Assembly: GCA_022711395.1 (NCBI GenBank)
Contig: JAKLFA010000002.1
Span: forward strand, 67,864 to 131,863
Direction of reading: 5' to 3'
Source of the DNA: Candidatus Omnitrophota bacterium
Lineage (GTDB): Bacteria; Omnitrophota; Gorgyraeia; Zapsychrales; JANLHA01
Length of the DNA stretch: 64,000 nucleotides
Shown here in pieces: positions 1,048 to 14,085 of the stretch. The number at the start of each line of letters is the position of its first letter. Positions within the stretch are counted from its first letter, which is position 1. The translations under genes were made by a program, and so were the position numbers. The notes beneath the pieces were generated by a model. That model saw only the letters and a program-made list of their open reading frames with translations. It was not told the DNA's origin and did not search any database.

Positions 1048-3375
1048 ATGACTTTTTTTCACCGTTTCATAAGTTCCGTTTTGCGTCATCCGTATCGCAC
1101 TCTTGCAGTTACGCTCATTTTTCTTGCCGTGTCGTTGGCCCTTTTTCCGCAGATCCGCATTGATGACAGCCTGGATGTTTTTTTTGATAAACACAGCCGG
1201 CATTTCATTGATTTCGAGGCCTGGAAAGAACAGTTCGGAAGCGATGAGCTGGTCATTGTGGGCCTGGCGACCGATGAGGTCTTCACTGTTGACAATTTAA
1301 ATTTGATCAAAACGCTTACGGAACAGTTTGAATCCCTGGAAGCGGTGGAGGACGTGACCAGCCTTTCAACGGTCAATCACGCTGTTGGAATGGGAGAGGA
1401 TTTTATTGTGGAACGCCTGATGGAAGGGCTTCCGCAAACGCCGCAGGAGATGGCGAGCCTTCGTCAGGAGGCGCTCGGAAACCCCTTGTATGTCCAGAAC
1501 GTCATTTCCAAAGACGGGAAAGTCGCCGCCCTGATCCTTGAGCTGGAATACGGGCTTGAGGGCGGTGCTCATAAAAAGAAGGTGATGGAAGGTGTCCAAA
1601 AGATCCTTAAAGCTGCGGCCCCTTCGGATGTGAGGTATTATGTCAGCGGGCTTACGGCGATCGAATATTATTACACCAAATATATGCAGGAAGACCTGAA
1701 ATCCTTCGGGCCGTTTATGTTCTTGATGGTGGCGTTCATCGTTTATTTAACGTTCCGGAAATGGCGGCTGGTCATTCTGCCGCTGTCGGCGATCCTGGCC
1801 AGCCTGGTCATGACCATGTCGCTGCTGGTCCTTTTCAAATTTTCGATCAATAATGTGACCACGATCATCCCGCCGATTCTTTTGGCCATCATGGTGGCCG
1901 ACAGCATCCACGTGATCGGCGAAGGGGTCGCGCGCAAACGCGCGATCAGGGACGGTTCAGAAAACGACAGCGTGTTTTTTGAAGAAACCATCCGTCATCT
2001 GCTGTTTCCGTGTTTTTTGACCAGCATCACGACCGCGGTAGGGTTTTGGTCTTTGACGATGAGCCGCATCCCGCCGGTCAAAGAGCTGGGGCTGGTCGTG
2101 GGGATCGGGGTGGCGTTCGCGTATCTTCTTACGTTCACATTTATGCCGGCGCTGGCCGTGGCGACCCGGGCCTTTAAAGGGGTCGGCCCGGAATCCGGCG
2201 AAAAAAAGATCAAGGGTTTTGACCGGCTCTTTGACCGTTTCCTTGAGGGGTTGGCGATTTTTAACGAACGTTTTGCCCGCTGGATCATTGTGGGCAGCGT
2301 GGTCTTGGTGGCCGTGTCCGTTTGGGGGATCAGCCGGCTGCGGGCGGAGACCAGCATTATTGAGGCGTTCCAAAAAAAGAGCGACATTTACCGTTCGACA
2401 GAATTTCTGGAAGACCATTTAAGCGGTGTTCATCCTTTGAATATTTCGCTGAAGGCGAAATCACCCGACGCCTTTTTGCATCCTGAAATGCTTAAGCGCA
2501 TTGAAGCCTTGAGCGCCTTTCTATACAGCATTGAGGAGGTGGACAAGGTCTCCTCGGTCAACGATTATTTGAAGGACATCAATCAATCGTTCCACAATGA
2601 GGATCCGGTGTTTTATGCATTGCCGGACACCAAAGAGATGGCGGCGCAGTATGTCCTTCTTTACGGAAGGGAAGACCTGGAGGATTTTGTGGATGAACAG
2701 TGGCAGTGGGCCACGGTGCGTGTGCGTCTAAAGGAACACAGCAGCGTGAAGCTTGAGCATGTGATCAAAAAGATCGATGAATATGTCCAAGAAAATTTTG
2801 CTGACCTTGAGGAGCGGAACACTTTAGGCCAAACGGTCCTGGAAGTGGACACGAATAACAGCGTGACCTTGGGCCAGGTCCAAAGCCTGGGAATGGCGAT
2901 GGCGGTGATCTTCGGGATGATGTTCTTGGTGTTCCGGTCCGTGCCGGTCGGGGTCGTGAGCATGGTCCCTAATATCCTGCCGATCCTTTTAAATTTCGGG
3001 ATCATGGGGATCTTTAACATCCGCCTGGATTCAGCCACCTCCATGATCGCGGCCATCGGCATCGGGATCGTGGTGGATGACACGATCCACTTTCTGCACG
3101 GGTTCGGTGAATTTTTAAGTGGGCATGGGGATTATACCAGGGCCATGCATGAGACGCTTAAGACGAGGGGCCGGCCGATCATTTTTACTTCGGTGGTCCT
3201 GTTCTTCGGGTTCGGGGTGGTGGGATTTTCGAAATTCATGCTCACGGCGTATTTCGGGATCCTGACGGCGCTTTTGATGTTCACAGCGCTGCTGGCGGAC
3301 CTGATGCTGACGCCGAGCCTTTTGATCGTGTTCAAACCCCCGTTTTGGAAGGGAGGGGATAAAGAAAATGACTGA
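1048..3375 (+). CDS. MMPL/RND-superfamily membrane transporter (sterol-sensing-domain type, HpnN-like lipid exporter)
   Basis: 775 aa with two 5-6 TM blocks separated by large soluble loops. MMPL-like motifs around the TM blocks (e.g. ...ADSIHVIGEG...; ...GIVVDDTIHFLHGF...). Confidence 0.75.
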   Translation: MTFFHRFISSVLRHPYRTLAVTLIFLAVSLALFPQIRIDDSLDVFFDKHSRHFIDFEAWKEQFGSDELVIVGLATDEVFTVDNLNLIKTLTEQFESLEAVEDVTSLSTVNHAVGMGEDFIVERLMEGLPQTPQEMASLRQEALGNPLYVQNVISKDGKVAALILELEYGLEGGAHKKKVMEGVQKILKAAAPSDVRYYVSGLTAIEYYYTKYMQEDLKSFGPFMFLMVAFIVYLTFRKWRLVILPLSAILASLVMTMSLLVLFKFSINNVTTIIPPILLAIMVADSIHVIGEGVARKRAIRDGSENDSVFFEETIRHLLFPCFLTSITTAVGFWSLTMSRIPPVKELGLVVGIGVAFAYLLTFTFMPALAVATRAFKGVGPESGEKKIKGFDRLFDRFLEGLAIFNERFARWIIVGSVVLVAVSVWGISRLRAETSIIEAFQKKSDIYRSTEFLEDHLSGVHPLNISLKAKSPDAFLHPEMLKRIEALSAFLYSIEEVDKVSSVNDYLKDINQSFHNEDPVFYALPDTKEMAAQYVLLYGREDLEDFVDEQWQWATVRVRLKEHSSVKLEHVIKKIDEYVQENFADLEERNTLGQTVLEVDTNNSVTLGQVQSLGMAMAVIFGMMFLVFRSVPVGVVSMVPNILPILLNFGIMGIFNIRLDSATSMIAAIGIGIVVDDTIHFLHGFGEFLSGHGDYTRAMHETLKTRGRPIIFTSVVLFFGFGVVGFSKFMLTAYFGILTALLMFTALLADLMLTPSLLIVFKPPFWKGGDKEND

Positions 3376-4282
3376 TCGTCAGCAATATCTTCATAACGAA
3401 GGTCTTTTTTATAAGAAGGCGTTTGAGCGCAATATCGGGATCCTGACCGAGGCGGAGCAGGAGAAACTGCGTCAGGCGCGCGTGGCCGTCGTGGGCTGCG
3501 GCGGCGTGGGAGGGGTGCATATCCTTAATGCGGTGCGCCTGGGCGTCGGGAATTTGAACATTGCCGATATGGACGTCTTTGATGTGGTCAACATTCAGCG
3601 CCAGTGCGGCGCGTATTTAGACACCATAGGCCGCAATAAGGCTGAGGTGCTGTGCGCGAGCGCGATGGCCGTCAATCCTTATGTGAAGGTCAAGACGTTT
3701 ATTGATGGGGTGTATGATGAGACCGTGGATGAGTTTTTGGAAGGGGTCGATCTGTTCATTGACGGCATTGATTTCTTTTGCATTGACATGAGGCGCCAGC
3801 TTTTTATGAGGGCCTATGAACTTGGGATCCCGGCGGTGACGGCCGGGCCGATCGGTTTCGGCAGTGCGCTTTTGGTGTTCATGCCCGGCGGGATGAGCTT
3901 TGACGAGTATTTTGATATCAGGGATGAGATGTCCTATGAGGAGAGGATGATCGCCTTCGCCGTGGGGCTCGCGCCGGCATCCGTTCATTTGAAATACATG
4001 AATCTGAAAAAGGTCGATGTCGCCAAGAAGACCGGGCCGGCGTTGGTCTCATCCTGCGGGCTGGCCAGCGCGCTGGTGATGACAGAGGTTCTTCGCATCC
4101 TTTTGCGCCGTCCGGGATTAAGGCCCGTGCCGCATTATCTGCAGCTGGACCCGTATCTTTCCGCCTACAAGTCCGGATATCTTTGGCTGGGGAATAAAAA
4201 TCCTGTTCAGCGTTTGAAACGGACGATCGTCAAGCGCATGCTGAAAAGGGAACACCGACATCACGGAGAAAGCCATGAATAA
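3368..4282 (+). CDS. ThiF/MoeB/HesA-family E1-like adenylyltransferase
   Basis: Rossmann motif VAVVGCGGVGGVHILNAVRLGVGNLNIADMDVFDVVNIQRQ. 304 aa. Overlaps the upstream MMPL gene by 8 nt (translational coupling). Confidence 0.7.
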   Translation: MTDRQQYLHNEGLFYKKAFERNIGILTEAEQEKLRQARVAVVGCGGVGGVHILNAVRLGVGNLNIADMDVFDVVNIQRQCGAYLDTIGRNKAEVLCASAMAVNPYVKVKTFIDGVYDETVDEFLEGVDLFIDGIDFFCIDMRRQLFMRAYELGIPAVTAGPIGFGSALLVFMPGGMSFDEYFDIRDEMSYEERMIAFAVGLAPASVHLKYMNLKKVDVAKKTGPALVSSCGLASALVMTEVLRILLRRPGLRPVPHYLQLDPYLSAYKSGYLWLGNKNPVQRLKRTIVKRMLKREHRHHGESHE

Positions 4283-5042
4283 ACGATATCTGTGCGTGCT
4301 GGCAATGGTATGGATGGTGTGCGCTGATGTTTCGGCGCAGACTTTGAGCGGGCCGGAGCTTGCGCAAATGATCTATGACCGGCCCGACGGGATGGACCGT
4401 TCCATGAACGTGGACATGGTCCTGGTGGACAAGAAGGGTAATGAGCGGCCGCGCACGCTGGTGCTGTTCGCCAGGGATGAGGGTCCGCTGGCCAAAACGT
4501 ATCTGGAGTTTTTGACGCCGGAGGATATCAAGGCCACGAAATTCCTTTCCATGGAACAGGCCCAGGGTGATGATATCCAGTATCTTTACCTTCCGGCGCT
4601 GGGAAGGGCCAGACGCATCGTGAGCAGCCAGAAAAATCTGCGTTTTGTGAACACGGATTATACCTATGAGGATATGCAAAGGCGCAAGCCTTCCGAGGAT
4701 GAACACCAGATCCTCCGTGAAGAAATTTATAACGGCCGGCCGTGTTACGTGCTTGAAAGTGTTCCGGTCTCCGCGAATTCACAGTATGGCCGCCGGGTAA
4801 GCTGGGTGGACAAGTTCAGCCTGGTGGCGCTGCATACGGACTTTTATGATAAAAAGGGGCGTTTGGTCAAAGTCTTTGAGGTCCTTTCCATGAAAGTGGT
4901 GGATGGGTTTTGGACGGTCATCAAGAGCCGGATGGAAGATCTTGAAGAGGCGCATCAGACGTTGATGACCGTGACGGAAGTCCGTTACGACCAGGGGATC
5001 GAGGGCGCAAAATTTGAGCTGCGCGCGCTGGAACAGCGATAG
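4275..5042 (+). CDS. LolA-like outer-membrane lipoprotein-sorting family protein (periplasmic lipid carrier partner of MMPL transporters)
   Basis: Signal peptide MNKRYLCVLAMVWMVCADVSAQ. About 230-aa mature beta-rich protein. Gene position directly downstream of MMPL, where LolA-like (PF17131-type) partners are typically found. Overlaps ThiF by 8 nt. Confidence 0.45.
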   Translation: MNKRYLCVLAMVWMVCADVSAQTLSGPELAQMIYDRPDGMDRSMNVDMVLVDKKGNERPRTLVLFARDEGPLAKTYLEFLTPEDIKATKFLSMEQAQGDDIQYLYLPALGRARRIVSSQKNLRFVNTDYTYEDMQRRKPSEDEHQILREEIYNGRPCYVLESVPVSANSQYGRRVSWVDKFSLVALHTDFYDKKGRLVKVFEVLSMKVVDGFWTVIKSRMEDLEEAHQTLMTVTEVRYDQGIEGAKFELRALEQR

Positions 5043-5067
5043 GCGTGAAGGCTAAAGGGGATGGAAC

Positions 5068-6495
5068 ATGGGGAAGGGGGCGAGAAGGATGAAAAACAGG
5101 ACGGGCGTGGTGCTGGTTTTGACATTTGCCTTCAGCGTGTGCGCGGCTTTGGCTCAGGCGGCGGTCTGGCCGGACCTGGTGGAAGTGGAGTGGACCCCTT
5201 CGGTGGAGGTGTGGTCCCTGAACTATGTTGAAGCGGTCGAAAACAATGATTATGAGGACGCTGCCGCCACGGACAGCTGGGTCCGCGCGTTCAACGAATT
5301 CTGGATCGAAGAACATGACCTGTTCATCAAGGCCGACGGGCAGTGGCGTTATAACGCCTGGAACGGCGGGCTTGAGAATGAAAGCCATGGGGAAGCGTCG
5401 TTCCGCGAGGTCTACGGGGAACTGCGCAAAGAGCATTACCGTTTTTCCGCCGGGGACCAGATCCTGACCTGGGGGAAAATGGATGACATCACGATCCTGG
5501 ACCGCGTCAATCCTCAGGATTACCGTCATTTCGTTCTCTATGATAAGCAGGAAAGAAAGGACCCCGTCCTGATGATGCGCCATGAATATTTCGGGGACGG
5601 TTACGGCTTTGAAACGGTTTATAAGCCGTATTTTGAGGCTTCTAAGGTGGATTATTTCGGGCGGAATTTTGCCGCCTTCGGGCATTTGAAGGAAGTGGTG
5701 GACTTAGGCGGCTACAGCGCGCTCCAGAAGTCGACGGTGCAGGGGATCGGGATCCGGGACGAGGACCGGGCTACGGAGCACAGCCTTGAGAACGGCGAGC
5801 TCGCGCTGCGTTATCGCGGCCATCTGAATGACGTGGATTACGGGCTGTATTATATGAACCAGCGCAATTCCATTCCGGTCCTGAGAGAATCATCGCCGGT
5901 CGGAAACACCGTAAAAGCTTTTTTGTATGACCCGACCCTGGCAACGCTGGACACGCTGGTTTCAGCGTCTCCCACCAGTGAGGACCTGGCGCTTACGGCC
6001 GCGCATCCGAGGGTCCAGACCGTGGGCGCGGACTGGGAAACGGTCCTGGGTGAATATGGCGTGCGGGGGGAGATGGCCGTGATGATGGGGATGCCGTTTT
6101 TGAACGAGGATTATTCTTATACCGAAAAGGACACGGTCATGGTCGGTGTAGGCGTCGACCATACTTTCGAGAACAGCGTTTACGCGGACCTTCAGTATGT
6201 TCAGCAGTATATTTTCGCCTATGATAAGCTTTACGCGCAGGAGGAGGCGCCGTTTTTTATCGCGGGGACGGTGAGCCGGGATTTCGCCCGCGGCAAGTTC
6301 AATGCCGGCCTGGACTGGACCTGGAACGCCTCTTACGGGGATTGGATGTTCAATCCTGAGCTGCTTTATAAGCCGTGGGACAGCCTTCATATTGCCGTCG
6401 GAAGTTTCATTTTTGAGGAGGGCAGCGCCAGCACGCTGTTCGGCCGCTATGACACGGGCGATATTATTTATGTGAGTTTGAAGGGAGTCTTTTAA
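5068..6495 (+). CDS. Putative outer-membrane beta-barrel protein
   Basis: Signal peptide ...VLVLTFAFSVCAALAQA. Alternating amphipathic, aromatic-rich strands. C-terminal ...YVSLKGVF ends in Phe, as in OM barrel sorting signals. Confidence 0.4.
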   Translation: MGKGARRMKNRTGVVLVLTFAFSVCAALAQAAVWPDLVEVEWTPSVEVWSLNYVEAVENNDYEDAAATDSWVRAFNEFWIEEHDLFIKADGQWRYNAWNGGLENESHGEASFREVYGELRKEHYRFSAGDQILTWGKMDDITILDRVNPQDYRHFVLYDKQERKDPVLMMRHEYFGDGYGFETVYKPYFEASKVDYFGRNFAAFGHLKEVVDLGGYSALQKSTVQGIGIRDEDRATEHSLENGELALRYRGHLNDVDYGLYYMNQRNSIPVLRESSPVGNTVKAFLYDPTLATLDTLVSASPTSEDLALTAAHPRVQTVGADWETVLGEYGVRGEMAVMMGMPFLNEDYSYTEKDTVMVGVGVDHTFENSVYADLQYVQQYIFAYDKLYAQEEAPFFIAGTVSRDFARGKFNAGLDWTWNASYGDWMFNPELLYKPWDSLHIAVGSFIFEEGSASTLFGRYDTGDIIYVSLKGVF

Positions 6496-6587
6496 AGGGC
6501 CGACGGGCGGCGTTAATGTCTTTGACAAGAGTTCAAATCAACGCCATAATGAGTCATTCTGAAACGGTGTGAACCGGGAGAGATGCC

Positions 6588-7028
6588 ATGGGATCTCAGC
6601 ACTTAGAGCGATTACGACAGGTCATTTCAAGCGATCAGCGCCGCTGTGAACGCATAGAGCTTCCGTTGAAGATGCTGTATGCGTCCCAGCCTGGCCATGG
6701 AGGCCAACTGGATTGGAAGGGGCCGGTATTGCTGGATAATATCGGCGGGGAAGGGATCGGATTTAATTCCAAGGACCTGATACAGGAAAATGAGGAGCTT
6801 TTGATCCGGATGTATCTGCCGGATGATGACTTGCCGGCGGTCTTTATCGGCAAGGTGGTCTGGGCGAAAGAGGACCCGTCTGCCAAGCGCTGCGGCTGCC
6901 GGGAATATTCTTACGGGATCCATATTGAAAAATATGATCCGCAGACTGAGGCCAGGTTCATGGGGTTCATGTCCGATCAAATTCTGGGAAAATACCTTGA
7001 TGAGTCAGGGGATCTAAAGGACATTTAA
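6588..7028 (+). CDS. PilZ-domain (c-di-GMP-binding) protein
   Basis: RRCERIEL (RxxxR) followed by DNIGGEGIGF (D/NxSxxG-like), the two PilZ signature motifs. Confidence 0.55.
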   Translation: MGSQHLERLRQVISSDQRRCERIELPLKMLYASQPGHGGQLDWKGPVLLDNIGGEGIGFNSKDLIQENEELLIRMYLPDDDLPAVFIGKVVWAKEDPSAKRCGCREYSYGIHIEKYDPQTEARFMGFMSDQILGKYLDESGDLKDI

Positions 7029-7034
7029 GGACAA

Positions 7035-7880
7035 ATGAATATGATGTTAGAACATGCCGGCATGCGCTCGATATTCAGCGGGATCGAATACCGTGTTGCG
7101 CGCAGCAGAGATGAATTGGCCCAGGCCTTTCATCTGGTCTATGAAGAATATCTGAAACAGGGCTACATTCATGAACATCCGTCGAAAATGCGGCTGTCTT
7201 TGCATAATCTGGTTCCTGAAACAACGACATTCATCGCCAAAGTGGATTCAACGGTTGTAGCGACGGCGACAGTCATCCCGGATTCGCCGCTGGGCTTGCC
7301 GATGGACGAGCTTTATCGGGAGGAACTCGCCGGTTTGCGCGACTCAGGAGAGAGGCTTTGCGAGGTTTCCATGCTCGCGCACAGCAGCGATCTTCTCAGT
7401 GACAAGGTCCCGTTGATGTTCAACGCCAAAAAGATGTTCCTGATCTTTTTCCTGTTCAAGCACGTCTTTGACTACGCGGTGCAGGAAGAAGCGCTGGATT
7501 ATATCTGTATCACGGTCAATCCGAAGCACTCGGCGATCTATGATTCGCTTTTGTTCAAGAACCTGGATGACCAGGTCAAGTATTACGGGAAGGTCAACGG
7601 CGCTCCGGCGATCGCCAAGGTCCTGAACCTTTCAACGATCGAGCAGGAATCCGCTCTGTCCAAACGGCATAATATGCACAAAATGTTCTTCAGCGGCAGG
7701 ACCGATCCCCGCCGTTTTGATGAAAAGTTCCGTTTCGGTATCGATGATATCAAATATTTTTTTGTGGACCAGGTCAACGCATTTGAAAACGCCAGTAAAG
7801 ATGAGGTCCGGTATATCATGGACGCATATCCCGAATATGATCTGAGCGGGATCATTCCCTTGCACATGATAAGGCCGTGA
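7035..7880 (+). CDS. N-acyl amino acid synthase-like GNAT acyltransferase (FeeM/OlsB-like; PEP-CTERM-system-associated acyltransferase family)
   Basis: 281 aa. N-terminal AQAFHLVYEEYLKQGYIHEHP...TTTFIAKVDSTVVATATVIP matches the autoinducer-synthase-like GNAT pattern of N-acyl amino acid synthases. 7 nt downstream of PilZ and 31 nt upstream of the ligase fusion. Confidence 0.5.
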   Translation: MNMMLEHAGMRSIFSGIEYRVARSRDELAQAFHLVYEEYLKQGYIHEHPSKMRLSLHNLVPETTTFIAKVDSTVVATATVIPDSPLGLPMDELYREELAGLRDSGERLCEVSMLAHSSDLLSDKVPLMFNAKKMFLIFFLFKHVFDYAVQEEALDYICITVNPKHSAIYDSLLFKNLDDQVKYYGKVNGAPAIAKVLNLSTIEQESALSKRHNMHKMFFSGRTDPRRFDEKFRFGIDDIKYFFVDQVNAFENASKDEVRYIMDAYPEYDLSGIIPLHMIRP

Positions 7881-7911
7881 CGGCGTCTTAACCGTTGATT
7901 TCAGAAAGCAC

Positions 7912-10908
7912 ATGCTGCATTCATCTCAACAGATCTTTGAGGTTTTCCGCGACGGGGCGCAAAAGGCGGGTGAGAAGGACGCGCTGTTATACAAGCAGAA
8001 GGCCCATTATGAGTCGATCAGCTATATCGCCCTCCTGAGGCAGGCGGCCGCCTTTGCCCGTGTTCTGCATAACCATCAGATCTCTCCCGGCGACAAGGTT
8101 GCGCTGGTCCTTGAGAACAGGCCGGAGTTCGCCGGTGCCGTGATGGCGGTCTGGGCTTGCGGGGCGGTGGCGGTCCCGTTGGACGTCCAATATTCCACCC
8201 TTGAGATCAAAACGCTTTTGAAACATTCTCAGGCCAGGCTGGTGGTCTCTCAGCAGCGGCTTTTCCATCTTCATGAGGAATTGCGTTCGATCTGCCCTTG
8301 GCTGACCGTGGATGACCCGGATCTGAAATATCATTTGCGCGAAGCTGCGGGGTCCGCCCGGGCGGTCGAGTTGGAGCATTCTCCGGCGGTTGACCTGGCG
8401 GCGTTGTTCTACACGTCAGGGACGACGGGAGAGCCCAAGGCGGTCATGCTCAGCCACGCGAATATCCTTTCGAATGTGAGGGCGTTCCATCAGCTTGAGA
8501 TCGCTTCTTCCAAAGACGTGGTCGTTTCGGTCCTGCCGTTGCATCACACCTACGCGTTTACGACGACACTGTTATATCCGCTTTTGATCGGGGCCACGGT
8601 CAGTTATCCAAAGAGCATCGCTTCCGTGGACCTTTTGTCCTGCATCAGGGAGACGTGCGCCACGGTCTTTGTCGGAGTGCCGCAGATCTTCAAGCATATG
8701 CATAAGGCCGTGGTCGACCGTATTGGAGGGATGAAGGCCCTGAAGCGTTCGATGGTGCTTGCCGCCGGAGAGCTTTGCATGAATTCCCGCAAGGTCCTGG
8801 GGGCCAATCCCGGGCGGGTTCTTTTTTCGCAGATCCACCATCAATTCGGGCCGTCGTTGCGCCTGATGGTCTCCGGCGGGGCGAAGCTGGACCCGGAGAT
8901 TTCCAGGGATTTTTATCGCTGGGGATTTTCTTTGATCGAGGGTTATGGCCTTACGGAGACATCACCGGTCGTTTCTTTTTCACTGCCCAATCAGGCGAAG
9001 TTCGGTTCCGTCGGAAGGGTGATCCCGGGAGTCGGGGTGGATATCAAGGACCCTGACGCGGCCGGTATCGGTGAGGTCCTGGTCAAAGGCCCTAATGTGA
9101 TGATGGGTTATTACAGGAACCAGGCCGAGACGGACCGGGTCCTTTATGACGGATGGTTCCATACGGGGGACCTGGGATATATCGACCGGGATGGATTTCT
9201 TTTTTTGACCGGCCGCAGCAAAGAGATCTTGGTCTTGGAGAACGGGGAGAACATCAATCCGGAGGAGCTGGAAAATTATTATGGCCAGAATCCCTTTATC
9301 AAGGAGATCGCGGTCCTTTCTTTTAAGGCTGAGCGTTCCTCGGGGGTCACGGCCGAAAAGCTTGTGGCGTTGATCGTCGCTGACCAGGACCATTTTTTGG
9401 CCCAGAAGGAAACGAATATCAAGGCCAGGATCAAATGGGAACTTGAGAACATGTGCGTGCACATGCCCAGTTATAAGAGGGTGACCGGATTTGAGGTTTC
9501 GCAGGAAGAGCTGCCCCGCACCAGGCTGGGGAAATTACGGCGTTTTGAGCTGCCCGAGATCTATGCCCGCCTTCGTGAGCGGTCGCAGGTCAAACAAAGG
9601 GTGCAGATCGTCGAGCCGGTGGAGGGGCGTTCTGAGCTGTTTGATCAGGCGCTGGGTTATCTCGAGGACGCGGTGGGCCGCCCCGTGGGCCTTAAGGAGC
9701 ATTTGGAACTGGACGTCGGGCTGGACTCGTTGGGCCGCATGGAGCTTTTGCTGGGGCTTCAGGAAAAGCTGGGTTTGAGCCTGACAGAGGAACAGTCGAT
9801 GCAGTTCTTTGTTTGCGTGACGGTCGAAGATCTTTTGGATAAGTTGAGGGAATTTTCAGCGTCGCTGCCCAGCGGGATCGCGGTGGATGAGGATGCCAAG
9901 ATCCTGAGCGGACTTTCGGCCGGCAGGGAGAATTTCGCGGTGGTGGCTGAGCGAGCGAAGTCCTTTTTGCGAGAGGCCCTGAACCGTGAATCGATCCAGG
10001 AGTCCGATCATTTGGAGCTGGACCTGGGGCTTGATTCGCTGGGGCGGATGGAAGTCCTTTTGAGCCTTCAGGAGCGTCTGGGGTTGACCATGTCGGATGA
10101 GCAGGCGGTGGGATTTTTCATGGCTTCGACGGTCGCGGAACTTCTTGAGAACCTTAAAAAAGAATTGCCCCGGATGCAGGAGGGCTCCGGCGCAAAGGCG
10201 TTCATGTGGTCGGATATCTTAAGACAGGATCCCGACGCTGACAAACTTAAGCGCATCAACACGGGGGACTTCAGCCTGCCCGCCCGTTTGTTCAATGTCG
10301 CGGGATGGTGTTTTTTCCGCGCCTTTTTTAAGTTGTTCTACCGGTTGAAGGTGGAGGGTCTTGAGAACGCAAACACCGAGGGTCCGTTCTTGATCTGTTC
10401 GAATCACACGACCTATTTTGATGCGTTGATTATTTTAAGCGCGTTGCCGTTCCGGAAATTTTTGCAGGTGTTCTTTTTGGGGGACAGCAAGTTCCTTAAC
10501 CATCCCGTGCTTCGTCCGTTCGGCCGGGCCGCCAGATTTATTCCGATCGAATTCACGCATAACATGGTGGAGGCGTTAAAGGTCTGCGCGTATGTCTTGC
10601 GGAATCAAAAAATCGTTTGTTACTTTCCGGAAGGGCAGCGGTCGATCGATGGGGAGGTGAAGGAATTCCGCAAAGGGGTGGGGGTCCTTGTTAAAGAGTT
10701 GGGAGTGCCGGTCCTGCCGGCGTTTATCAGCGGGGCTTTTGAATGCTGGCCACGCGGGCAGCGGTTTCCCAAATTGTTTGGCAACGTCACGTTGCGTTTT
10801 GGTAAAATGACCTCTTCAAAAGAGCTTCTTTTCCGGGTTTTTGACGCGGAGGATGATTATGAGCAAACCGCTGAGAACTTACGGATCCGCGTCTCATCTT
10901 TGAAGTAA
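7912..10908 (+). CDS. Multidomain fusion: fatty-acid AMP-ligase (acyl-ACP synthetase-like) - ACP - ACP - 1-acyl-glycerol-3-phosphate/lyso-lipid acyltransferase (PlsC/OlsA family)
   Basis: Adenylation motifs YTSGTTGEPKAV, GYGLTET, GWFHTGDLGY. Two phosphopantetheine sites LELDVGLDSLGRMELL (~nt 9715) and LELDLGLDSLGRMEVL (~nt 10020). C-terminal acyltransferase motifs CSNHTTYFD (HX4D) and FPEGQRS. Confidence 0.8.
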   Translation: MLHSSQQIFEVFRDGAQKAGEKDALLYKQKAHYESISYIALLRQAAAFARVLHNHQISPGDKVALVLENRPEFAGAVMAVWACGAVAVPLDVQYSTLEIKTLLKHSQARLVVSQQRLFHLHEELRSICPWLTVDDPDLKYHLREAAGSARAVELEHSPAVDLAALFYTSGTTGEPKAVMLSHANILSNVRAFHQLEIASSKDVVVSVLPLHHTYAFTTTLLYPLLIGATVSYPKSIASVDLLSCIRETCATVFVGVPQIFKHMHKAVVDRIGGMKALKRSMVLAAGELCMNSRKVLGANPGRVLFSQIHHQFGPSLRLMVSGGAKLDPEISRDFYRWGFSLIEGYGLTETSPVVSFSLPNQAKFGSVGRVIPGVGVDIKDPDAAGIGEVLVKGPNVMMGYYRNQAETDRVLYDGWFHTGDLGYIDRDGFLFLTGRSKEILVLENGENINPEELENYYGQNPFIKEIAVLSFKAERSSGVTAEKLVALIVADQDHFLAQKETNIKARIKWELENMCVHMPSYKRVTGFEVSQEELPRTRLGKLRRFELPEIYARLRERSQVKQRVQIVEPVEGRSELFDQALGYLEDAVGRPVGLKEHLELDVGLDSLGRMELLLGLQEKLGLSLTEEQSMQFFVCVTVEDLLDKLREFSASLPSGIAVDEDAKILSGLSAGRENFAVVAERAKSFLREALNRESIQESDHLELDLGLDSLGRMEVLLSLQERLGLTMSDEQAVGFFMASTVAELLENLKKELPRMQEGSGAKAFMWSDILRQDPDADKLKRINTGDFSLPARLFNVAGWCFFRAFFKLFYRLKVEGLENANTEGPFLICSNHTTYFDALIILSALPFRKFLQVFFLGDSKFLNHPVLRPFGRAARFIPIEFTHNMVEALKVCAYVLRNQKIVCYFPEGQRSIDGEVKEFRKGVGVLVKELGVPVLPAFISGAFECWPRGQRFPKLFGNVTLRFGKMTSSKELLFRVFDAEDDYEQTAENLRIRVSSLK

Positions 10909-11019: not shown

Positions 11020-11874
11020 ATGATCTTAAAGCGCGGTTTTTCTGTGATGCGGTCCTCTGTAGTGACGTTGATCCAAAATCCCGGTATTCTGTATCCATAT
11101 GCGATCGTAGGGATCCTTCAGTTGTTCATTCTTGAGATCCTTTTTTTCATGCCCCGGTATCCGCTTATTCAGATCTTTGGGCCGATGATCCTGGCGCTTA
11201 AGAAGTCGCCATTTTTCTTGCATTACCCCTTTAATTTTGAAGTGGTGAACAGTTGGTTCCAGTCCCTGCAGGTGCCCTTCTATGTTTTTGTGCAGATCCT
11301 TTTTGTGGCCAAGGCTGTTCTGATCGTTCAAAAGACCGAACAGCGTCAGGCGGTGGAATCAATGCCGAAGGTCGCTTTTGGAAAATATGTGAATCTTGTG
11401 GTGGGGGCGGCGATCATTATCGGGCTGATGTATGCGTTCAATTACGGCTATTCGTTCTTGATCCGCAGGGCTGTTCAGATCCGTTCGACGTCGGGCCTTT
11501 ACTTTTTGATCAAGCAGGCCGTGATCCTGGGTGGGCCGTATATCAATTTGATGGTCTCGGCTTTTATCACGGCGTGCTTCGCTTATGTGATCCCGCTCAT
11601 CGCGATCGAAGGGGACAATGTCTTCAAGGCGGTTTTTCGGAATTTCAAATTGCTTAAAGGCGATTTTTTTGTCTTACTGGCTTTTTTGACGGTCGCGGCA
11701 TTGTGCTTTGTGCCGTTCCTTCTGGTGAAAACGAATGAGATCGCGATCCGTTCGATGATGACGCCTGAAGGCTGGCAGATGATCACGATCTTGGGCGCGG
11801 GGCTGATCCTTTTGATCGACGCTCTGCAGTATACAGGAATAACGATTGTATATCTCAAAAAGGATAGATCATGA
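11020..11874 (+). CDS. Polytopic membrane protein, unknown function
   Basis: 284 aa with about 7 hydrophobic helices. No recognisable catalytic motif. Confidence 0.5.
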   Translation: MILKRGFSVMRSSVVTLIQNPGILYPYAIVGILQLFILEILFFMPRYPLIQIFGPMILALKKSPFFLHYPFNFEVVNSWFQSLQVPFYVFVQILFVAKAVLIVQKTEQRQAVESMPKVAFGKYVNLVVGAAIIIGLMYAFNYGYSFLIRRAVQIRSTSGLYFLIKQAVILGGPYINLMVSAFITACFAYVIPLIAIEGDNVFKAVFRNFKLLKGDFFVLLAFLTVAALCFVPFLLVKTNEIAIRSMMTPEGWQMITILGAGLILLIDALQYTGITIVYLKKDRS

Positions 11875-12779
11875 AAAAAACACTCCTCGTTCTGGTCGGT
11901 CTGTTGGTTGCGGTCTATGTCGTCCTGACGTTGGTGGATACCAAATCAGAATATCTGCTGGAGAAAAAGCTTTGGCGGATCCAGAAAGATTTTGTGGCGA
12001 TCGCGCAGGACCCGAAAGCTGCGCCGGATAATCAGTATAAAGAAGCGATCGCCAAATACAGGGCGCTGATCCAGAAATACCCTAAGGCACGGCTGACGCC
12101 TCAGATGTATTTTCAGATCGGCCGTCTTGAAGAGATGCGGAAGAATTTTGACGGGGCGCGGGCGGTCTTTAAGGAGGCTTCGGAGGCGTTTAAGGATAAT
12201 TCATCGATCGTTTCAGACGCGATGTATCGGGTTGGACTTTCTTTCGAACAGGAGGGAAAGATCAATGATGCGATCGCGATCTACCGGGAGATCGGACGGG
12301 TATTTTCACGGACGCAGATCGGGTTTTCGATGCCGATCTATATTGCCAGTATTTATCGACGTTTAGGGGACCCGGTCAAGCAGAATCAGGCGCTTGCTGA
12401 GGCGGAAACGTTTTATCGGGCGATCCTTTCCGAGACGGAAGATGGATCAGCCTCTCAACTGGAGGTTTTGCGGGCCTTAACGACCGCTTTGCTGGGGCAG
12501 CAAAAATGGGGTGAGGCGTATCAAACTCTTGAGAGAACGTTGTTTTCTTTCGCCAGGTCCAAGCATTTGAGGCCGCAGGCTGCTGGAGGGATCGTTCGGA
12601 CCTTGAGCGTTGTGGGGGCTGGGCAACTGAATGACATGCCCAGGGTAATGAAGACCCTGGAAACTTTCAAGGAGCAGAATCCGGGCCATCCGCTGAACGC
12701 CTATCTTGAGCAGATCAAAGCGTCTCTTCAACAGATGAAGCAGGAAGAAAAGAAGGCGGCGGTCGTCGGGAATGAATAA
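11871..12779 (+). CDS. Membrane-anchored TPR-like repeat protein
   Basis: N-terminal TM LLVLVGLLVAVYVVLTLV, then helical-repeat (TPR-like) sequence. Start overlaps the previous gene by 4 nt and the end overlaps the kinase gene by 8 nt. Confidence 0.5.
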   Translation: MKKTLLVLVGLLVAVYVVLTLVDTKSEYLLEKKLWRIQKDFVAIAQDPKAAPDNQYKEAIAKYRALIQKYPKARLTPQMYFQIGRLEEMRKNFDGARAVFKEASEAFKDNSSIVSDAMYRVGLSFEQEGKINDAIAIYREIGRVFSRTQIGFSMPIYIASIYRRLGDPVKQNQALAEAETFYRAILSETEDGSASQLEVLRALTTALLGQQKWGEAYQTLERTLFSFARSKHLRPQAAGGIVRTLSVVGAGQLNDMPRVMKTLETFKEQNPGHPLNAYLEQIKASLQQMKQEEKKAAVVGNE

Positions 12780-14085
12780 AGGGATGAGCCAGGATCATAT
12801 TCAGCAACTGACCGAGTCGGATCTGTTCAAGCAGGTCAGTGATATCTGCGCTGTGGTCAATACGGTCACCGATGTTCAACAGCTTCTGGAAGTGTCTTTA
12901 TCACGCACGCTTAGATTGTTTGGGGCCCGTCGGGGGTCTGTGTTCATCATGGATGAGAACACGAAATGCCTGCTTTTGAAAGCGGCTGAAGGCCTGCAGC
13001 AGACCGAGGTCAATCAGATGATGAAGCGCATCGGTGAGGGCGTGGTGGGTCGGGTCGCCGAGCAGAAGATCCCGATCGTGGTTGAGAATATTGAGACGGA
13101 TGAACGCTTTGTGAACTATCGAGCCCGCAAAAGTTATCAAACGCCGTCTTTTATTTGTGCGCCGCTGCTCATTAAGGACCATCTGATTGGAGTGATCAAT
13201 ATCACCGATAAATTGAGCGGGGCGGGTTTCGGAAGGGCGGATCTTCAGCTTCTGGATTTTTTGGCGATGCAGATCGCTTTGAATTACCGGCGTATTGAGC
13301 TGTATGAACGGTTCCGGTCGATCCTCAAACGCTCAGAAGAGCTCAAAAACGAGCTTGGCAAAAGCAGTCAGGAAACGACGAAATTGCGCCGGCAGATCAT
13401 CGCTCATGAGCGGCTTGCCACCGTGGGAAAAATGGCTGGCGGGATCGCCCATGAGTTCAACAATCCGCTGGATGGTGTTTTAAGGTATACCAACCTGTGT
13501 TTAAAACAGGTCGGCGATGATGAGGTGATCCGCAGTTATCTTTTGGAGATCAAGAACGGTTTGAACCGGATGACGACCATTGTCCGGAATTTGCTGGCGT
13601 GCTCCCGGCGCTCCGAAAAACCCCTGCAGATGATTCGGCCGGATGTGGTGGTCGACCAGGCGATCCAGGCGGTGCAGTCCGAAGCGCAGCATAAAAACGT
13701 TCGTATTGAGAAGGAAGTCGGGCCCGGCTTGCCGGATTTGAAAGACCTGGGATTGGAAAGCATTTTGGTGAATCTTTTGCGCAACGCTGTCGATGCCCTT
13801 AAACCAGGCGGGCTTGTTAAGATCTCTGCGGTTCATTTAGAGCACAACGGGCATGTTGTTTTTCAAGTGGCGGACAATGGACCGGGCATTCCGGATTCGG
13901 AAGATCCGAGCAAAATTTTTGAGCCGTTCTATACGACTAAGGATATGGAGAAGGGTTGCGGTCTGGGTTTGACCATTGTTTCCGAGATCGTTAAGAGCTA
14001 TCAGGGGCAGATCCAGGTTGAGAGCGCTCCCGGAGAGGGCGCGACATTTATTGTTACTATTCCGATTGAAACGAGGGACCTATGA
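12772..14085 (+). CDS. Soluble GAF-domain sensor histidine kinase
   Basis: GAF region with ...GRVAEQKIPIVVENIETDERF.... HisKA H-box IAHEFNNPL. HATPase N/G boxes NLLRNAVDAL and DNGPGIP...GLGLTIV. Confidence 0.75.
   Translation: MNKGMSQDHIQQLTESDLFKQVSDICAVVNTVTDVQQLLEVSLSRTLRLFGARRGSVFIMDENTKCLLLKAAEGLQQTEVNQMMKRIGEGVVGRVAEQKIPIVVENIETDERFVNYRARKSYQTPSFICAPLLIKDHLIGVINITDKLSGAGFGRADLQLLDFLAMQIALNYRRIELYERFRSILKRSEELKNELGKSSQETTKLRRQIIAHERLATVGKMAGGIAHEFNNPLDGVLRYTNLCLKQVGDDEVIRSYLLEIKNGLNRMTTIVRNLLACSRRSEKPLQMIRPDVVVDQAIQAVQSEAQHKNVRIEKEVGPGLPDLKDLGLESILVNLLRNAVDALKPGGLVKISAVHLEHNGHVVFQVADNGPGIPDSEDPSKIFEPFYTTKDMEKGCGLGLTIVSEIVKSYQGQIQVESAPGEGATFIVTIPIETRDL

What the first reader, a model, noticed from the sequence alone, without database searches (positions are those of the whole stretch)
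7035..7880. OlsB/FeeM-like N-acyl amino acid synthase immediately upstream of the ligase-ACP-acyltransferase fusion
This GNAT subfamily N-acylates amino acids (ornithine, lysine, glycine, tyrosine etc.) using acyl-ACP. Its placement 31 nt upstream of a protein that carries its own acyl-ACP suggests substrate channelling. The same family is annotated as a PEP-CTERM/exosortase-system-associated acyltransferase in other genomes, and a PEP-CTERM protein gene sits at 129-941.
Basis: partly seen in the sequence, partly recalled or inferred. Interest (0 to 1): 0.6.

Follow-up and report, generated by a model that had tools for sequence, protein, structure and literature searches.

The report
FeeM-type lipoamino-acid synthase in exosortase locus
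The gene is a real FeeM-family enzyme that attaches a fatty acid to an amino acid; it belongs to a conserved, uncharacterised Omnitrophota gene cluster that appears to add a c-di-GMP sensor, its own fatty-acid loading protein, an ATP-dependent ring-closing enzyme and an export machine, probably to make a surface or secreted lipid.

Summary
The ORF at 7035-7880 is real. [quoted passage not shown] It is not OlsB/PF13444 or TIGR03694: 0 of 45 family members hit those models.

- The ligase-ACP-ACP-acyltransferase fusion is a conserved same-strand neighbour.
- In sister Omnitrophota loci, genuine TIGR03694 proteins fill the same slot upstream of the fusion.
- The source contig carries EpsI and PEP-CTERM genes.

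- A PilZ gene sits directly upstream in the whole clade and is fused to the NAS in many relatives, implying c-di-GMP control.
- A ThiF-type enzyme is embedded in the HAE3-RND/LolA-like/DUF1302 export cassette. NAS plus ThiF (plus a flavin desaturase) is the known acyl-oxazolone pathway (OxzAB, TyzABC, TrzAS).
- No desaturase gene was detected in the 64-kb window.

Most likely function: regulated synthesis, ATP-dependent C-terminal activation or cyclisation, and export of a lipoamino acid within an exosortase/EPS programme. Verdict: a new variant of known kinds, of moderate interest.

The parts
129..941 (+). PEP-CTERM sorting-signal protein (PepA-like), first gene of the cluster inside the window
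   Evidence: PF07589 E=7.7e-6; TIGR02595 at 21.5 bits (cutoff 16); NF033554 PepA at 60.7 bits, below its cutoff. The gene call on the source contig matches these coordinates.
1048..3375 (+). HAE3/MMPL-type RND inner-membrane transporter
   Evidence: TIGR00921 HAE3 E=4e-58; PF03176 MMPL; sterol-sensing domain. Co-occurs with the NAS gene in 18 of 81 loci.
3368..4282 (+). ThiF-type adenylating enzyme (PRK08223 family), proposed N-acyl-amino-acid carboxylate activator or cyclase
   Evidence: NF006077 at 364 bits (cutoff 266). It scores 356 bits against the ThiF part of PRK14851, which is a ThiF-FDO fusion. GxGxxG, NIQRQ and IDGID align with E. coli ThiF motifs. It has 8-nt overlaps with both neighbouring genes.
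4275..5042 (+). LolA-like / DUF1329-related periplasmic lipid carrier
   Evidence: PF17131 E=7e-57; PF07044 E=5.5e-9.
5068..6495 (+). DUF1302 outer-membrane protein
   Evidence: PF06980 E=6.6e-11. Found in 24 of 38 PilZ-coupled loci.
6588..7028 (+). PilZ-domain protein, putative c-di-GMP receptor partnered with the NAS
   Evidence: PF07238 E=3.4e-7. It lies directly upstream on the same strand throughout the clade. RxxxR and (D/N)x(S/G)xxG are conserved in 39 sequences. PilZ-FeeM fusions exist in the same order.
7035..7880 (+). FeeM-family N-acyl amino acid synthase with a conserved ~80-aa C-terminal helical extension (the finding)
   Evidence: PF21926 E=4e-36. FeeM 2g0b by sequence E=1.3e-18. 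Foldseek E=4e-15, TM 0.82-0.86. E110 is invariant. pLDDT 92.4.
7912..10908 (+). Fatty-acid adenylating domain, ACP, ACP and PlsC-type acyltransferase fusion; proposed dedicated acyl donor
   Evidence: PF00501, two PF00550 and PF01553. Two LDSLGRME Ser motifs, NHTTYFD (HX4D) and FPEGQRS. Conserved adjacency to the NAS gene.
11020..11874 (+). Conserved polytopic membrane protein of unknown family
   Evidence: No Pfam or NCBIfam hit, and a hydrophobic sequence. Co-occurs in 14 of 38 PilZ-coupled loci and also follows the fusion in TIGR03694-type loci.
11871..12779 (+). TPR / YbgF(CpoB)-like protein
   Evidence: TIGR02795 E=7e-15 and TPR Pfam hits. Conserved after the membrane protein.
12772..14085 (+). 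GAF-HisKA-HATPase sensor kinase
   Evidence: Pfam hits. Weak resemblance to PrsK (TIGR02916, 86 bits against a cutoff of 300).
14082..15485 (+). Sigma-54-dependent response regulator (PrsR-like)
   Evidence: PF00072, PF00158 and PF02954. TIGR02915 PEP-CTERM-box regulator at 418 bits, below its cutoff of 503.
15485..16516 (+). PocR-GAF sensory protein, last conserved gene of the module
   Evidence: PF10114 and PF13185. Conserved at this position in L002, L004 and L085-L087.

Best explanation
[quoted passage not shown] It transfers a fatty acyl chain from a thioester donor to the alpha-amino group of an amino acid, using the invariant Glu110 as general base.

In this Omnitrophota bacterium it is one step of a roughly 16-kb co-directional cluster inside an exosortase/PEP-CTERM locus. 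The proposed sequence of events is:
1. The downstream fusion protein adenylates a free fatty acid and loads it on its own tandem ACPs.
2. The NAS takes that acyl-ACP and makes an N-acyl amino acid. Its activity is gated by the translationally coupled PilZ protein in response to c-di-GMP.
3. [quoted passage not shown] As in OxzB, TyzB and TrzS, this closes it into a 5(4H)-oxazolone. No flavin desaturase gene was found, so the ring would stay saturated and reactive, or the activated carboxylate would pass to another nucleophile.
4. The PlsC-type domain adds a second acyl group to an unknown hydroxyl acceptor.
5. The HAE3-RND, LolA-like and DUF1302 proteins carry the lipid to the outer membrane or cell surface.
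6. The GAF kinase, sigma-54 regulator and PocR-GAF proteins set transcription.

Shown here: the family assignment, the fold, the conserved residues, the gene neighbourhoods and the domain fusions. Inferred: the acyl donor, the amino acid used, c-di-GMP gating, the ThiF substrate and product, and export.
For: Family and fold:
- PF21926 E=4e-36; 45 of 45 relatives hit it.
- FeeM 2G0B by sequence E=1.3e-18. Foldseek top hit is FeeM at E=4e-15 and TM 0.82-0.86; the next hits (NatC, SpeG, LasI) are around 1e-6.
- Glu110 is invariant. It aligns with the Glu of FeeM's KLAEV motif. That is the Glu95/Glu103 residue shown to be essential in Nas354 (PMC4897644).

Acyl donor:
- 17 intact A-ACP-AT genes lie on the same strand within 1 kb of the NAS gene.
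- The slot upstream of homologous fusions is always an NAS-type enzyme, either FeeM-type or TIGR03694-type.
- The ACP Ser motifs and the HX4D motif are intact.

PilZ:
- It is directly upstream in every close homologue.
- The c-di-GMP-binding motifs are conserved.
- 9 of 10 long relatives that I scanned are PilZ-FeeM fusions in the same order. 38 of the top 150 representatives carry such an N-terminal extension.
- An NAS-PilZ fusion that makes N-acyltyrosine is published (PMC4897644).

ThiF:
- The NAS matches positions 32-201 and the ThiF matches positions 312-590 of one fusion model, PRK14852.
- L059 encodes a FeeM-ThiF fusion. L067 and L070 pair NAS genes with ThiF-FDO genes of the Rv1355c and PRK14851 types.
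- ThiF is near the NAS gene in 29 of 81 loci across phyla.
- Its adenylation motifs are conserved, and no GG-ended carrier protein is present.
- Biochemical precedents: OxzAB (bioRxiv 10.1101/2020.06.11.147165), TyzABC next to mmpL9 (PMC10404671), and TrzAS, where the saturated cyclised intermediate accumulates without FDO activity (PMC12856293).

Export: the DUF1302, DUF1329 and HAE3 trio is a known hydrophobe export cassette (PMC6394551; bioRxiv 10.1101/072470). ThiF overlaps its neighbours inside that cassette.

Exosortase context.
Against: - No biochemistry exists for any member of this clade.
- The characterised ThiF-partnered NAS enzymes (OxzA, TyzA, TrzA) use acyl-CoA, not acyl-ACP.
- Scalindua loci keep only PilZ plus the NAS, with no fusion, ThiF or exporter within 10 kb. 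The partnerships are therefore not obligatory.
- ThiF is detectable near only 12 of 38 PilZ-coupled loci, although many of those contigs are short.
- The FDO desaturase is absent from the window. It could lie elsewhere in the genome: it is adjacent in the close relative L011 and in L037.
- The window's PilZ has Gly where the canonical motif has Ser.
- The role given to the PlsC domain is a guess.
- No sigma-54 promoter signal was found.
Confidence: 0.6

Rival explanations
1. OlsB/OlsA-like membrane aminolipid pathway. The NAS N-acylates an amino acid such as ornithine, lysine or glycine. The PlsC-type domain then O-acylates the product to give a diacyl aminolipid that serves as a bulk envelope lipid. 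ThiF plays no part in this chemistry.
For: An NAS paired with a PlsC-family acyltransferase is the logic of OlsB/OlsA (my own knowledge). The pairing recurs here as a fusion or as a standalone acyltransferase right beside the NAS gene, for example 7 nt away in L033. The tandem ACPs could supply two acyl chains. A lipid exporter is present.
Against: The NAS is not in the OlsB/PF13444 family. The OlsA reaction needs a 3-hydroxyacyl chain, and a fatty-acid ligase gives no sign of supplying one. The ThiF link is deep and includes domain fusions. ThiF is embedded in the export cassette. PilZ and sigma-54 control inside an EPS locus suggests a conditional product rather than a bulk lipid.
Confidence: 0.2
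2. Lipid partner for exosortase. The N-acyl amino acid, or its ThiF-activated form, is the lipid that PEP-CTERM proteins become attached to after cleavage by exosortase. This would parallel the lipid attachment of archaeosortase substrates.
For: The PilZ-coupled clade co-occurs with EpsH (7 of 38 loci), EpsI (6 of 38) and PEP-CTERM genes (13 of 38), against 0, 0 and 1 of 43 loci elsewhere. The source contig has EpsI and a PEP-CTERM gene immediately upstream. An unrelated NAS family, TIGR03694, is also tied to exosortase loci and fills the same slot (Craig et al. 2011, as cited in PMC9762135 and PMC11072679). ThiF-type activation yields an electrophile able to acylate an amine.
Against: This rests entirely on co-location. 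Exosortase chemistry and its acceptor are unknown. Scalindua loci and many distant loci have the NAS without any exosortase genes. Known oxazolone systems are unrelated to protein sorting. The window contains no exosortase gene; only EpsI is seen upstream.
Confidence: 0.1
3. Diffusible signal synthase. The PilZ-NAS pair makes an N-acyl amino acid or oxazolone that acts as a quorum or stress signal. The neighbouring genes are only loosely related to it.
For: The fold is shared with LuxI-type AHL synthases; LasI is among the fold hits. TIGR03694 relatives weakly hit TraI models. Oxazolones and N-acyl amino acids have been proposed as signals. The Scalindua PilZ-NAS pair stands alone.
Against: A dedicated ligase-ACP donor, a PlsC domain and a three-compartment hydrophobe exporter are more than a diffusible signal would need. 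No cognate LuxR-type receptor is present in the cluster.
Confidence: 0.08
4. Generic GNAT acetyltransferase that modifies a protein or small molecule, and only happens to lie next to lipid genes.
For: The GNAT superfamily fold gives many weak hits to NatC, SpeG and NAT10.
Against: FeeM is the best hit by about 8 orders of magnitude in fold E-value and is detected by plain sequence search. All 45 relatives hit PF21926. Synteny and fusions with PilZ, ThiF and acyl-ACP machinery are conserved.
Confidence: 0.02

Closest known systems
FeeM (PDB 2G0B), N-acyltyrosine synthase from soil eDNA; Pfam PF21926, 'type I NAS'
   Same: Same Pfam family. 31% identity across the whole FeeM fold (TM 0.82-0.86). 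The catalytic Glu and the PDSPLGLPMD, CEVSMLA and NPKH motifs are conserved. FeeM also works with a dedicated ACP (FeeL), as described in PMC10404671 and PMC4897644.
   Different: The window protein is 281 aa against 198 aa, with a conserved ~80-aa helical C-terminal extension. Its partners are PilZ, ThiF and a ligase-ACP-ACP-acyltransferase fusion rather than the fee cluster. Its amino-acid specificity is unknown.
Acyl-oxazolone pathways: OxzA/OxzB (Pseudoalteromonas rubra), TyzA/TyzB/TyzC and TrzA/TrzS (M. tuberculosis)
   Same: An NAS of the FeeM/LuxI fold is genetically coupled to a ThiF-type, ATP-dependent enzyme acting on the N-acyl amino acid carboxylate. An MMPL-family transporter lies next to the ThiF gene, as with tyz and mmpL9. 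Homologues of the window NAS sit beside bona fide Rv1355c-family and PRK14851 ThiF-FDO genes (L067, L070).
   Different: No nitroreductase/FDO desaturase was found in the window or in most Omnitrophota loci. The ThiF belongs to the standalone PRK08223 type. The likely donor is a dedicated acyl-ACP rather than acyl-CoA. PilZ, a PlsC domain, a full outer-membrane export cassette and an exosortase context are added. The host is an uncultured Omnitrophota bacterium.
Nas343 / Nas354 NAS-PilZ fusion proteins (Thies et al. 2016, slaughterhouse biofilm metagenome)
   Same: A FeeM-type NAS is physically linked to a PilZ domain, and c-di-GMP regulation was proposed. The catalytic Glu was shown to be essential.
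   Different: There the order is NAS (N-terminal) then PilZ (C-terminal) in one polypeptide, with no accompanying pathway genes. Here PilZ is a separate upstream gene, and many relatives are fused in the PilZ-then-NAS order.
TIGR03694 PEP-CTERM/exosortase system-associated acyltransferase (Craig, Cherry & Brady 2011 NAS family; related to PF13444 / OlsB)
   Same: Same biochemical class (long-chain NAS) and the same superfamily, with the catalytic Glu region alignable by hhalign. It occupies the same slot directly upstream of the homologous ligase-ACP-acyltransferase fusion in other Omnitrophota loci, and it shares the association with exosortase loci.
   Different: A different family: 0 of 45 relatives of the window protein hit TIGR03694 or PF13444, with 18% identity over about 98 columns. 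TIGR03694 proteins are about 220-235 aa, lack the C-terminal extension, are often present as two tandem copies, and have no PilZ partner.
AmeABCD-type HAE3 RND cassette (DUF1302 outer-membrane protein, DUF1329/LolA-like, HAE3 pump)
   Same: The same three protein families are encoded together, which implies export of a hydrophobic molecule across the envelope.
   Different: The BNR/COG4447 component is missing, and a ThiF gene occupies an internal position in the cassette.

Membership tests
FeeM family N-acyl amino acid synthase (Pfam PF21926; 'type I NAS') | Scores above the Pfam gathering threshold for PF21926 | tested here: met
   124.6 bits against a cutoff of 27, E=4e-36, covering profile positions 1-154 of 158. 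45 of 45 aligned relatives also hit it.
FeeM family N-acyl amino acid synthase (Pfam PF21926; 'type I NAS') | FeeM-like GNAT/LuxI-type alpha/beta fold | tested here: met
   The AF2 model has pLDDT 92.4. Foldseek's best match is 2g0b, with E=4e-15, TM 0.82-0.86 normalised to FeeM and 31% identity.
FeeM family N-acyl amino acid synthase (Pfam PF21926; 'type I NAS') | Conserved active-site glutamate (FeeM Glu95 / Nas354 Glu103) | tested here: met
   E110 is invariant in 45 sequences. It aligns with the Glu of FeeM's KLAEV motif. Its essential role is shown in PMC4897644.
FeeM family N-acyl amino acid synthase (Pfam PF21926; 'type I NAS') | Catalyses N-acylation of an amino acid from acyl-ACP or acyl-CoA | not testable with these tools
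   This needs an enzyme assay or heterologous expression with LC-MS.
TIGR03694 PEP-CTERM/exosortase system-associated acyltransferase | Scores above the TIGR03694 cutoff (111.95 bits) | tested here: not met
   No hit at E<=10 for the window protein, and none at E<=1 for any of 45 relatives. Positive control: the slot-fillers in L085-L087 score 157-186 bits.
TIGR03694 PEP-CTERM/exosortase system-associated acyltransferase | Genomic association with exosortase (EpsH) and PEP-CTERM genes | tested here: met
   EpsI, Bac_transf and PEP-CTERM genes lie upstream on the source contig. EpsH occurs in 7 and PEP-CTERM genes in 13 of 38 PilZ-coupled loci, against 0 and 1 of 43 other loci.
OlsB / PF13444 (Acetyltransf_5) lyso-ornithine-lipid synthase type | Match to PF13444 or the OlsB NCBIfam models | tested here: not met
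   0 of 45 members hit PF13444 at E<=1. There is no OlsB model hit.
OlsB / PF13444 (Acetyltransf_5) lyso-ornithine-lipid synthase type | Paired with a PlsC-family O-acyltransferase (OlsA-like) | tested here: met
   A PlsC domain with an intact HX4D motif is in the adjacent fusion. Standalone PlsC genes lie beside the NAS gene in distant loci. This shows resemblance only, not membership.
Acyl-oxazolone synthetase system (OxzAB / TyzABC / TrzAS) | N-acyltransferase of the FeeM/LuxI fold encoded with a ThiF-family enzyme | tested here: met
   ThiF lies at 3368-4282 in the same co-directional cluster. The NAS and ThiF match one fusion model, PRK14852. L059 has a fusion, and L067 and L070 have adjacent pairs. 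ThiF is present in 29 of 81 loci.
Acyl-oxazolone synthetase system (OxzAB / TyzABC / TrzAS) | Nitroreductase-superfamily flavin oxidase (FDO) domain or gene for the desaturation step | tested here: not met
   tblastn with two FDO domains finds nothing in the 64-kb window at E<=0.01. It does find FDO in 12 other loci. No such domain appears in the Pfam scans of the window ORFs I scanned (most ORFs of 150 aa or more). The rest of the genome could not be searched.
Acyl-oxazolone synthetase system (OxzAB / TyzABC / TrzAS) | ThiF adenylation residues intact (ATP-dependent cyclisation) | tested here: met
   GCGGVGG, ADMD, NIQRQ and IDGID align with the E. coli ThiF motifs GLGGLG, ADDD, NLQRQ and LDCTD. 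Activity itself was not tested.
PilZ-regulated NAS (Nas343/Nas354 type) | PilZ domain fused or coupled to the NAS, with c-di-GMP-binding motifs | tested here: met
   The PilZ gene ends 6 nt before the NAS start. It is conserved upstream across the clade. RxxxR is at least 90% conserved and (D/N)x(S/G)xxG is conserved. Fusions are confirmed. Ligand binding was not tested.

The most novel reading that the evidence does not exclude
In Omnitrophota, the ThiF enzyme without a desaturase partner turns the c-di-GMP-gated N-acyl amino acid into a reactive saturated oxazolone or acyl-adenylate. This is not an end product. It is an activated lipid donor or acceptor used at the cell surface, for instance to lipidate PEP-CTERM proteins processed by exosortase, or the associated exopolysaccharide. 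That would supply the long-missing chemical partner of the exosortase system. It would also explain why two unrelated NAS families were independently recruited to the same slot in exosortase loci.
Probability: 0.1. Interest if true: 0.85.

Novelty: new variant of a known kind. Interest (0 to 1): 0.5.

Why it matters
[quoted passage not shown] This cluster, conserved across uncultured Omnitrophota, joins all three. It adds a self-contained fatty-acid-loading and acyltransferase protein and an envelope-spanning lipid exporter, and no desaturase gene was found near it.

The cluster therefore offers a compact, testable system for three questions:
- Does c-di-GMP directly control lipoamino-acid synthesis?
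- What does a ThiF-type cyclase make when it acts alone?
- What do lipoamino acids do in exosortase-dependent surface and EPS biology, which has had no biochemical explanation since 2006?

The swap between TIGR03694-type and FeeM-type enzymes in one slot is strong genomic evidence that the NAS reaction itself is what the exosortase-linked module needs.

Tried and rejected
- TIGR03694 / OlsB membership: scanned the window protein at E<=10 and 45 relatives at E<=1. No hit, so membership is rejected.
- FDO/nitroreductase in the window: tblastn with two FDO domains and Pfam scans of the window ORFs I scanned found none.
- The conserved unknown ORF 11020-11874 as a hidden flavoenzyme: it is a polytopic membrane protein, so this is rejected.
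- FeeM-ThiF fusions among the fetched loci by same-ORF test: none found at first. L059 was later recognised as such a fusion through NCBIfam.
- ThiF acting on a ThiS/MoaD-like protein: no small ORF ending in GG exists in 1-17.5 kb.
- Sigma-54 promoter consensus: 18 matches against about 30 expected by chance, and none in the relevant intergenic gaps, so no signal.
- Riboswitches, including c-di-GMP: the Rfam gathering scan of the window and the upstream flank found only tRNAs.
- C-terminal extension as a PilZ-docking module: rejected as specific to PilZ, because distant homologues without PilZ also have it.
- O2-dependence of FDO as the reason for its absence in an anaerobe: not pursued, because FDO genes also occur in Desulfosoma and CPR loci.
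- Craig et al. 2011 is not in the held library.
- The top 120 ThiF homologues were all standalone, so that search gave no fusion evidence.
Full report
**1. The observation**

The + strand carries an ATG-to-TGA ORF of 281 codons at 7035-7880.
- It starts 6 nt after the stop codon of an upstream 146-codon ORF (6588-7028). An AAGGA motif overlaps that stop codon.
- It ends 31 nt before a 998-codon ORF (7912-10908).
- That downstream protein has an AMP-binding adenylation domain and two phosphopantetheine-attachment (ACP) domains (LELDVGLDSLGRME and LELDLGLDSLGRME). It also has a PlsC-type acyltransferase domain with intact NHTTYFD (HX4D) and FPEGQRS motifs.
- The ORF is coding beyond doubt. A word-indexed search finds 178 homologues of matching length down to about 40% identity. 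An exhaustive profile search of 1.84 billion representatives finds 4,181 at E<=1e-3 and 678 at E<=1e-30.

**2. What the protein is**

- Pfam gives a single hit, PF21926 (FeeM), at 124.6 bits (E=4e-36) over almost the whole model.
- A plain phmmer search of the PDB finds FeeM (2G0B) at E=1.3e-18.
- An AlphaFold2 model built on 45 homologues has mean pLDDT 92.4 and pTM 0.90.
- Foldseek against the PDB puts the FeeM chains first (E=4e-15 to 1e-12, TM 0.82-0.86 normalised to FeeM, 30-33% identity). Generic GNATs and the AHL synthase LasI follow at about 1e-6.
- Glu110 is invariant in the family alignment. It aligns with the Glu of FeeM's KLAEV motif. This is the residue called Glu95 in FeeM and shown by mutation (E103A) to be essential in Nas354 (PMC4897644).
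- Residues of about 200-281 form a helical extension absent from FeeM, with conserved F218, F228, D238, Y241-F243 and C264-Y265.
- The extension also occurs in distant homologues, including those next to ThiF-FDO genes. Short forms of about 200 aa occur in CPR bacteria.

**3. What it is not**

- The window protein does not hit TIGR03694 or any OlsB model at E<=10.
- None of the 45 aligned relatives hits PF13444, PF00765 or TIGR03694 at E<=1.
- A profile-profile comparison with genuine TIGR03694 proteins gives only 85% probability and 18% identity over about 98 columns, although the catalytic Glu region aligns.
- The two are therefore remote relatives in one superfamily, not one family.

**4. 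Organism and locus**

- The downstream fusion is 100% identical to an NCBI protein from a Candidatus Omnitrophota MAG. The closest locus (83% identity) is also Omnitrophota.
- The window comes from a 516-kb JGI metagenome contig. Just upstream of window position 1 that contig encodes EpsI, a Bac_transf priming sugar transferase, a C-type lectin and an unknown protein.
- Inside the window the genes run co-directionally from 129 to 16516, many with 1-8-nt overlaps. In order they are:
  - PEP-CTERM protein
  - HAE3/MMPL RND pump
  - ThiF-type enzyme
  - LolA-like/DUF1329 protein
  - DUF1302 outer-membrane protein
  - PilZ
  - NAS
  - ligase-ACP-ACP-acyltransferase fusion
  - polytopic membrane protein
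  - TPR/YbgF-like protein
  - GAF histidine kinase
  - sigma-54 response regulator (PrsR-like, below cutoff)
  - PocR-GAF protein
- The rest of the window is housekeeping.

**5. Conserved partners**

I fetched 80 loci from representative genomes plus several from metagenomes. I then scored the neighbourhoods with tblastn and iterated HMMs.

*PilZ*
- It lies directly upstream on the same strand in every close homologue, including Scalindua, where PilZ plus the NAS stand alone.
- The partner PilZ proteins conserve RxxxR (at least 90%) and (D/N)x(S/G)xxG.
- In the exhaustive search, 38 of the top 150 representatives have an N-terminal extension of at least 115 aa. Of 10 that I scanned, 9 are PilZ-FeeM fusions in the same order as the two genes here.
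- A fusion in the opposite order that makes N-acyltyrosine is published (PMC4897644).

*The tri-domain fusion*
- It is intact in 17 loci and cut by contig ends in others. It is always on the same strand and within 1 kb, in the order PilZ-NAS-fusion or fusion-PilZ-NAS.
- Going the other way, three of four more distant tri-domain homologues on long contigs have one or two bona fide TIGR03694 genes (157-186 bits against a cutoff of 112) in the slot directly upstream. The same membrane-protein, TPR, kinase, sigma-54 regulator and PocR-GAF genes follow.
- The fourth has a standalone PlsC acyltransferase in that slot.
- The conserved module therefore needs an NAS, and two different NAS families supply it.

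*Exosortase genes*
- EpsH, EpsI and regex-detected PEP-CTERM proteins occur in 7, 6 and 13 of 38 PilZ-coupled loci. They occur in 0, 0 and 1 of 43 other loci.

*ThiF*
- The window NAS matches positions 32-201 and the window ThiF matches positions 312-590 of a single NCBIfam model, PRK14852 (989 aa).
- The ThiF is a PRK08223 member (364 bits against a cutoff of 266). It scores 356 bits against the ThiF part of PRK14851.
- Scanning long ThiF ORFs from distant loci gave three results:
  - PRK14851 is a fusion of ThiF with an Acg-family FMN oxidase (L070).
  - L067 has an Rv1355c-family ThiF-FDO gene (710 bits) next to an NAS homologue.
  - L059 encodes a direct FeeM-ThiF fusion without FDO.
- ThiF lies within 10 kb of the NAS gene in 29 of 81 loci across Omnitrophota, Thermodesulfobacteriota, Planctomycetota, Bacteroidota and CPR.

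**6. Link to known chemistry**

- An NAS, a ThiF-type enzyme and a nitroreductase-family flavin oxidase (FDO) together form the acyl-oxazolone pathway. The examples are OxzA/OxzB in Pseudoalteromonas rubra (bioRxiv 10.1101/2020.06.11.147165), TyzA/B/C in M. tuberculosis next to mmpL9 (PMC10404671) and TrzA/TrzS (PMC12856293).
[quoted passage not shown] The saturated cyclised intermediate accumulates when O2 is limiting or the FDO is crippled. Oxazolones hydrolyse or undergo alcoholysis readily.
- The window ThiF keeps the adenylation motifs that align with E. coli ThiF.
- No GG-ended carrier-protein ORF is present in the cluster. This fits a small-molecule substrate.
- tblastn with two FDO domains finds FDO genes in 12 loci, including L011, a close relative with the full cluster, and L037. 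It finds none in the 64-kb window or in the other close loci.
- Whether an FDO lies elsewhere in this genome could not be tested.

**7. Export**

- DUF1302 (outer membrane), DUF1329/LolA-like (periplasm) and an HAE3 RND pump form a recognised hydrophobe export cassette. Examples are AmeABCD (PMC6394551) and the cofitness cluster proposed to export an envelope component (bioRxiv 10.1101/072470).
- Here ThiF is inserted between the pump and the LolA-like gene, overlapping both. This ties its product to the transporter, much as tyzB sits next to mmpL9.

**8. Most likely mechanism**

- The fusion loads a fatty acid onto its ACPs.
- The NAS, gated by PilZ and c-di-GMP, makes an N-acyl amino acid.
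- ThiF adenylates its carboxylate. The result is a saturated oxazolone, or an activated acyl group that passes to another nucleophile.
- The PlsC domain adds a further ester-linked acyl chain to an unknown acceptor.
- The RND, LolA-like and DUF1302 proteins export the lipid.
- All of this occurs within an exosortase/EPS programme under sigma-54 two-component control.
- Confidence by step:
  - about 0.9 that the protein is a FeeM-family NAS;
  - about 0.7 that PilZ and the fusion are direct functional partners;
  - about 0.6 that ThiF acts on the NAS product;
  - well under 0.5 for the exact end product.
- Caveats:
  - The characterised ThiF-partnered NAS enzymes use acyl-CoA.
  - Scalindua keeps only PilZ plus the NAS.
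  - Many contigs are short, so co-occurrence fractions are lower bounds.
  - The window PilZ has Gly at the canonical Ser position.
  - No sigma-54 promoter or riboswitch signal was found.

**9. Verdict**

It is right on enzyme class, on the partnership with the fusion and on the exosortase context. It is wrong on family identity with OlsB and TIGR03694, and it misses PilZ and ThiF.

Each pairwise link has a precedent: NAS with exosortase, NAS with PilZ, and NAS with ThiF. The combination does not appear in the literature I could search. That combination comprises an apparently desaturase-less ThiF, a dedicated ligase-ACP-ACP-acyltransferase, an envelope exporter and the FeeM/TIGR03694 swap in one slot.

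I rate it a new variant of a known kind, with moderate interest.

Noticed in passing
window 7912-10908: The ligase-ACP-acyltransferase fusion has two tandem ACP domains with near-identical Ser motifs. Only the window and its closest relatives (L004, L005, L049) have two; other homologues have one or none detected.
   Followed up: partly
window 3368-4282 (with 1048-3375 and 4275-5042): The ThiF gene sits inside the HAE3-RND / LolA-like / DUF1302 export cassette, with 8-nt overlaps on both sides. Described AmeABCD-type cassettes instead carry a fourth, BNR/COG4447 periplasmic component, which is missing here.
   Followed up: partly
L085:5492-6989, L086:5627-6997, L087:6289-6990: In other Omnitrophota loci, one or two bona fide TIGR03694 NAS genes without PilZ fill the slot upstream of the homologous fusion. 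This is a non-orthologous swap with the PilZ plus FeeM-type pair.
   Followed up: yes
L087:4158-6119: A PAS-GAF-GGDEF (c-di-GMP synthase-type) gene lies directly upstream of the TIGR03694 NAS and the fusion. The c-di-GMP theme therefore recurs even where PilZ is absent.
   Followed up: no
L059:11443-13470; L070:9896-14119; L067:9893-13147: L059 encodes a FeeM-like plus ThiF fusion without FDO. L070 has two tandem NAS genes followed by a ThiF-FDO fusion (PRK14851 type). L067 has an NAS gene next to an Rv1355c-family ThiF-FDO gene. Together these identify the 'hypothetical' NCBIfam models PRK14851 and PRK14852 as oxazolone-synthetase-like architectures.
   Followed up: yes
L044, L045, L047, L050, L063, L066, L068, L070, L074, L076: Many distant loci carry two or more tandem FeeM-like paralogues. 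One database representative (P0379, 585 aa) is a FeeM-FeeM tandem in a single protein.
   Followed up: no
L084:1-2995 (source contig upstream of window position 1): EpsI, a Bac_transf priming glycosyltransferase, a C-type lectin-domain protein and an unknown protein precede the PEP-CTERM gene. The window therefore starts in the middle of an exosortase/EPS locus.
   Followed up: partly
L003:1-87 and L086:15346-16703: The sigma-54 gene (rpoN) itself lies next to the cluster's sigma-54-dependent regulator in two loci.
   Followed up: no
window 11020-11874: A conserved polytopic membrane protein with no Pfam or NCBIfam family always follows the fusion, in both FeeM-type and TIGR03694-type loci. 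Its function is unknown.
   Followed up: partly
window 60472-63879 (-): A 1,135-aa HEAT/PBS-lyase-repeat protein lies in a stretch where GC drops to 0.42-0.47, against about 0.50-0.55 elsewhere.
   Followed up: no
window 19467-21317 (-) and 21809-22612 (-): ORFs of 616 aa and 267 aa have no Pfam hit at E<=0.001.
   Followed up: no
window 54877-58976 (-); 35553-39005 (+); 41397-41669 (+): This region holds a trehalose-6-phosphate synthase/phosphatase fusion next to a GH15/trehalase-like gene, two PMT_2-type membrane glycosyltransferases, and a cluster of three tRNA genes.
   Followed up: no
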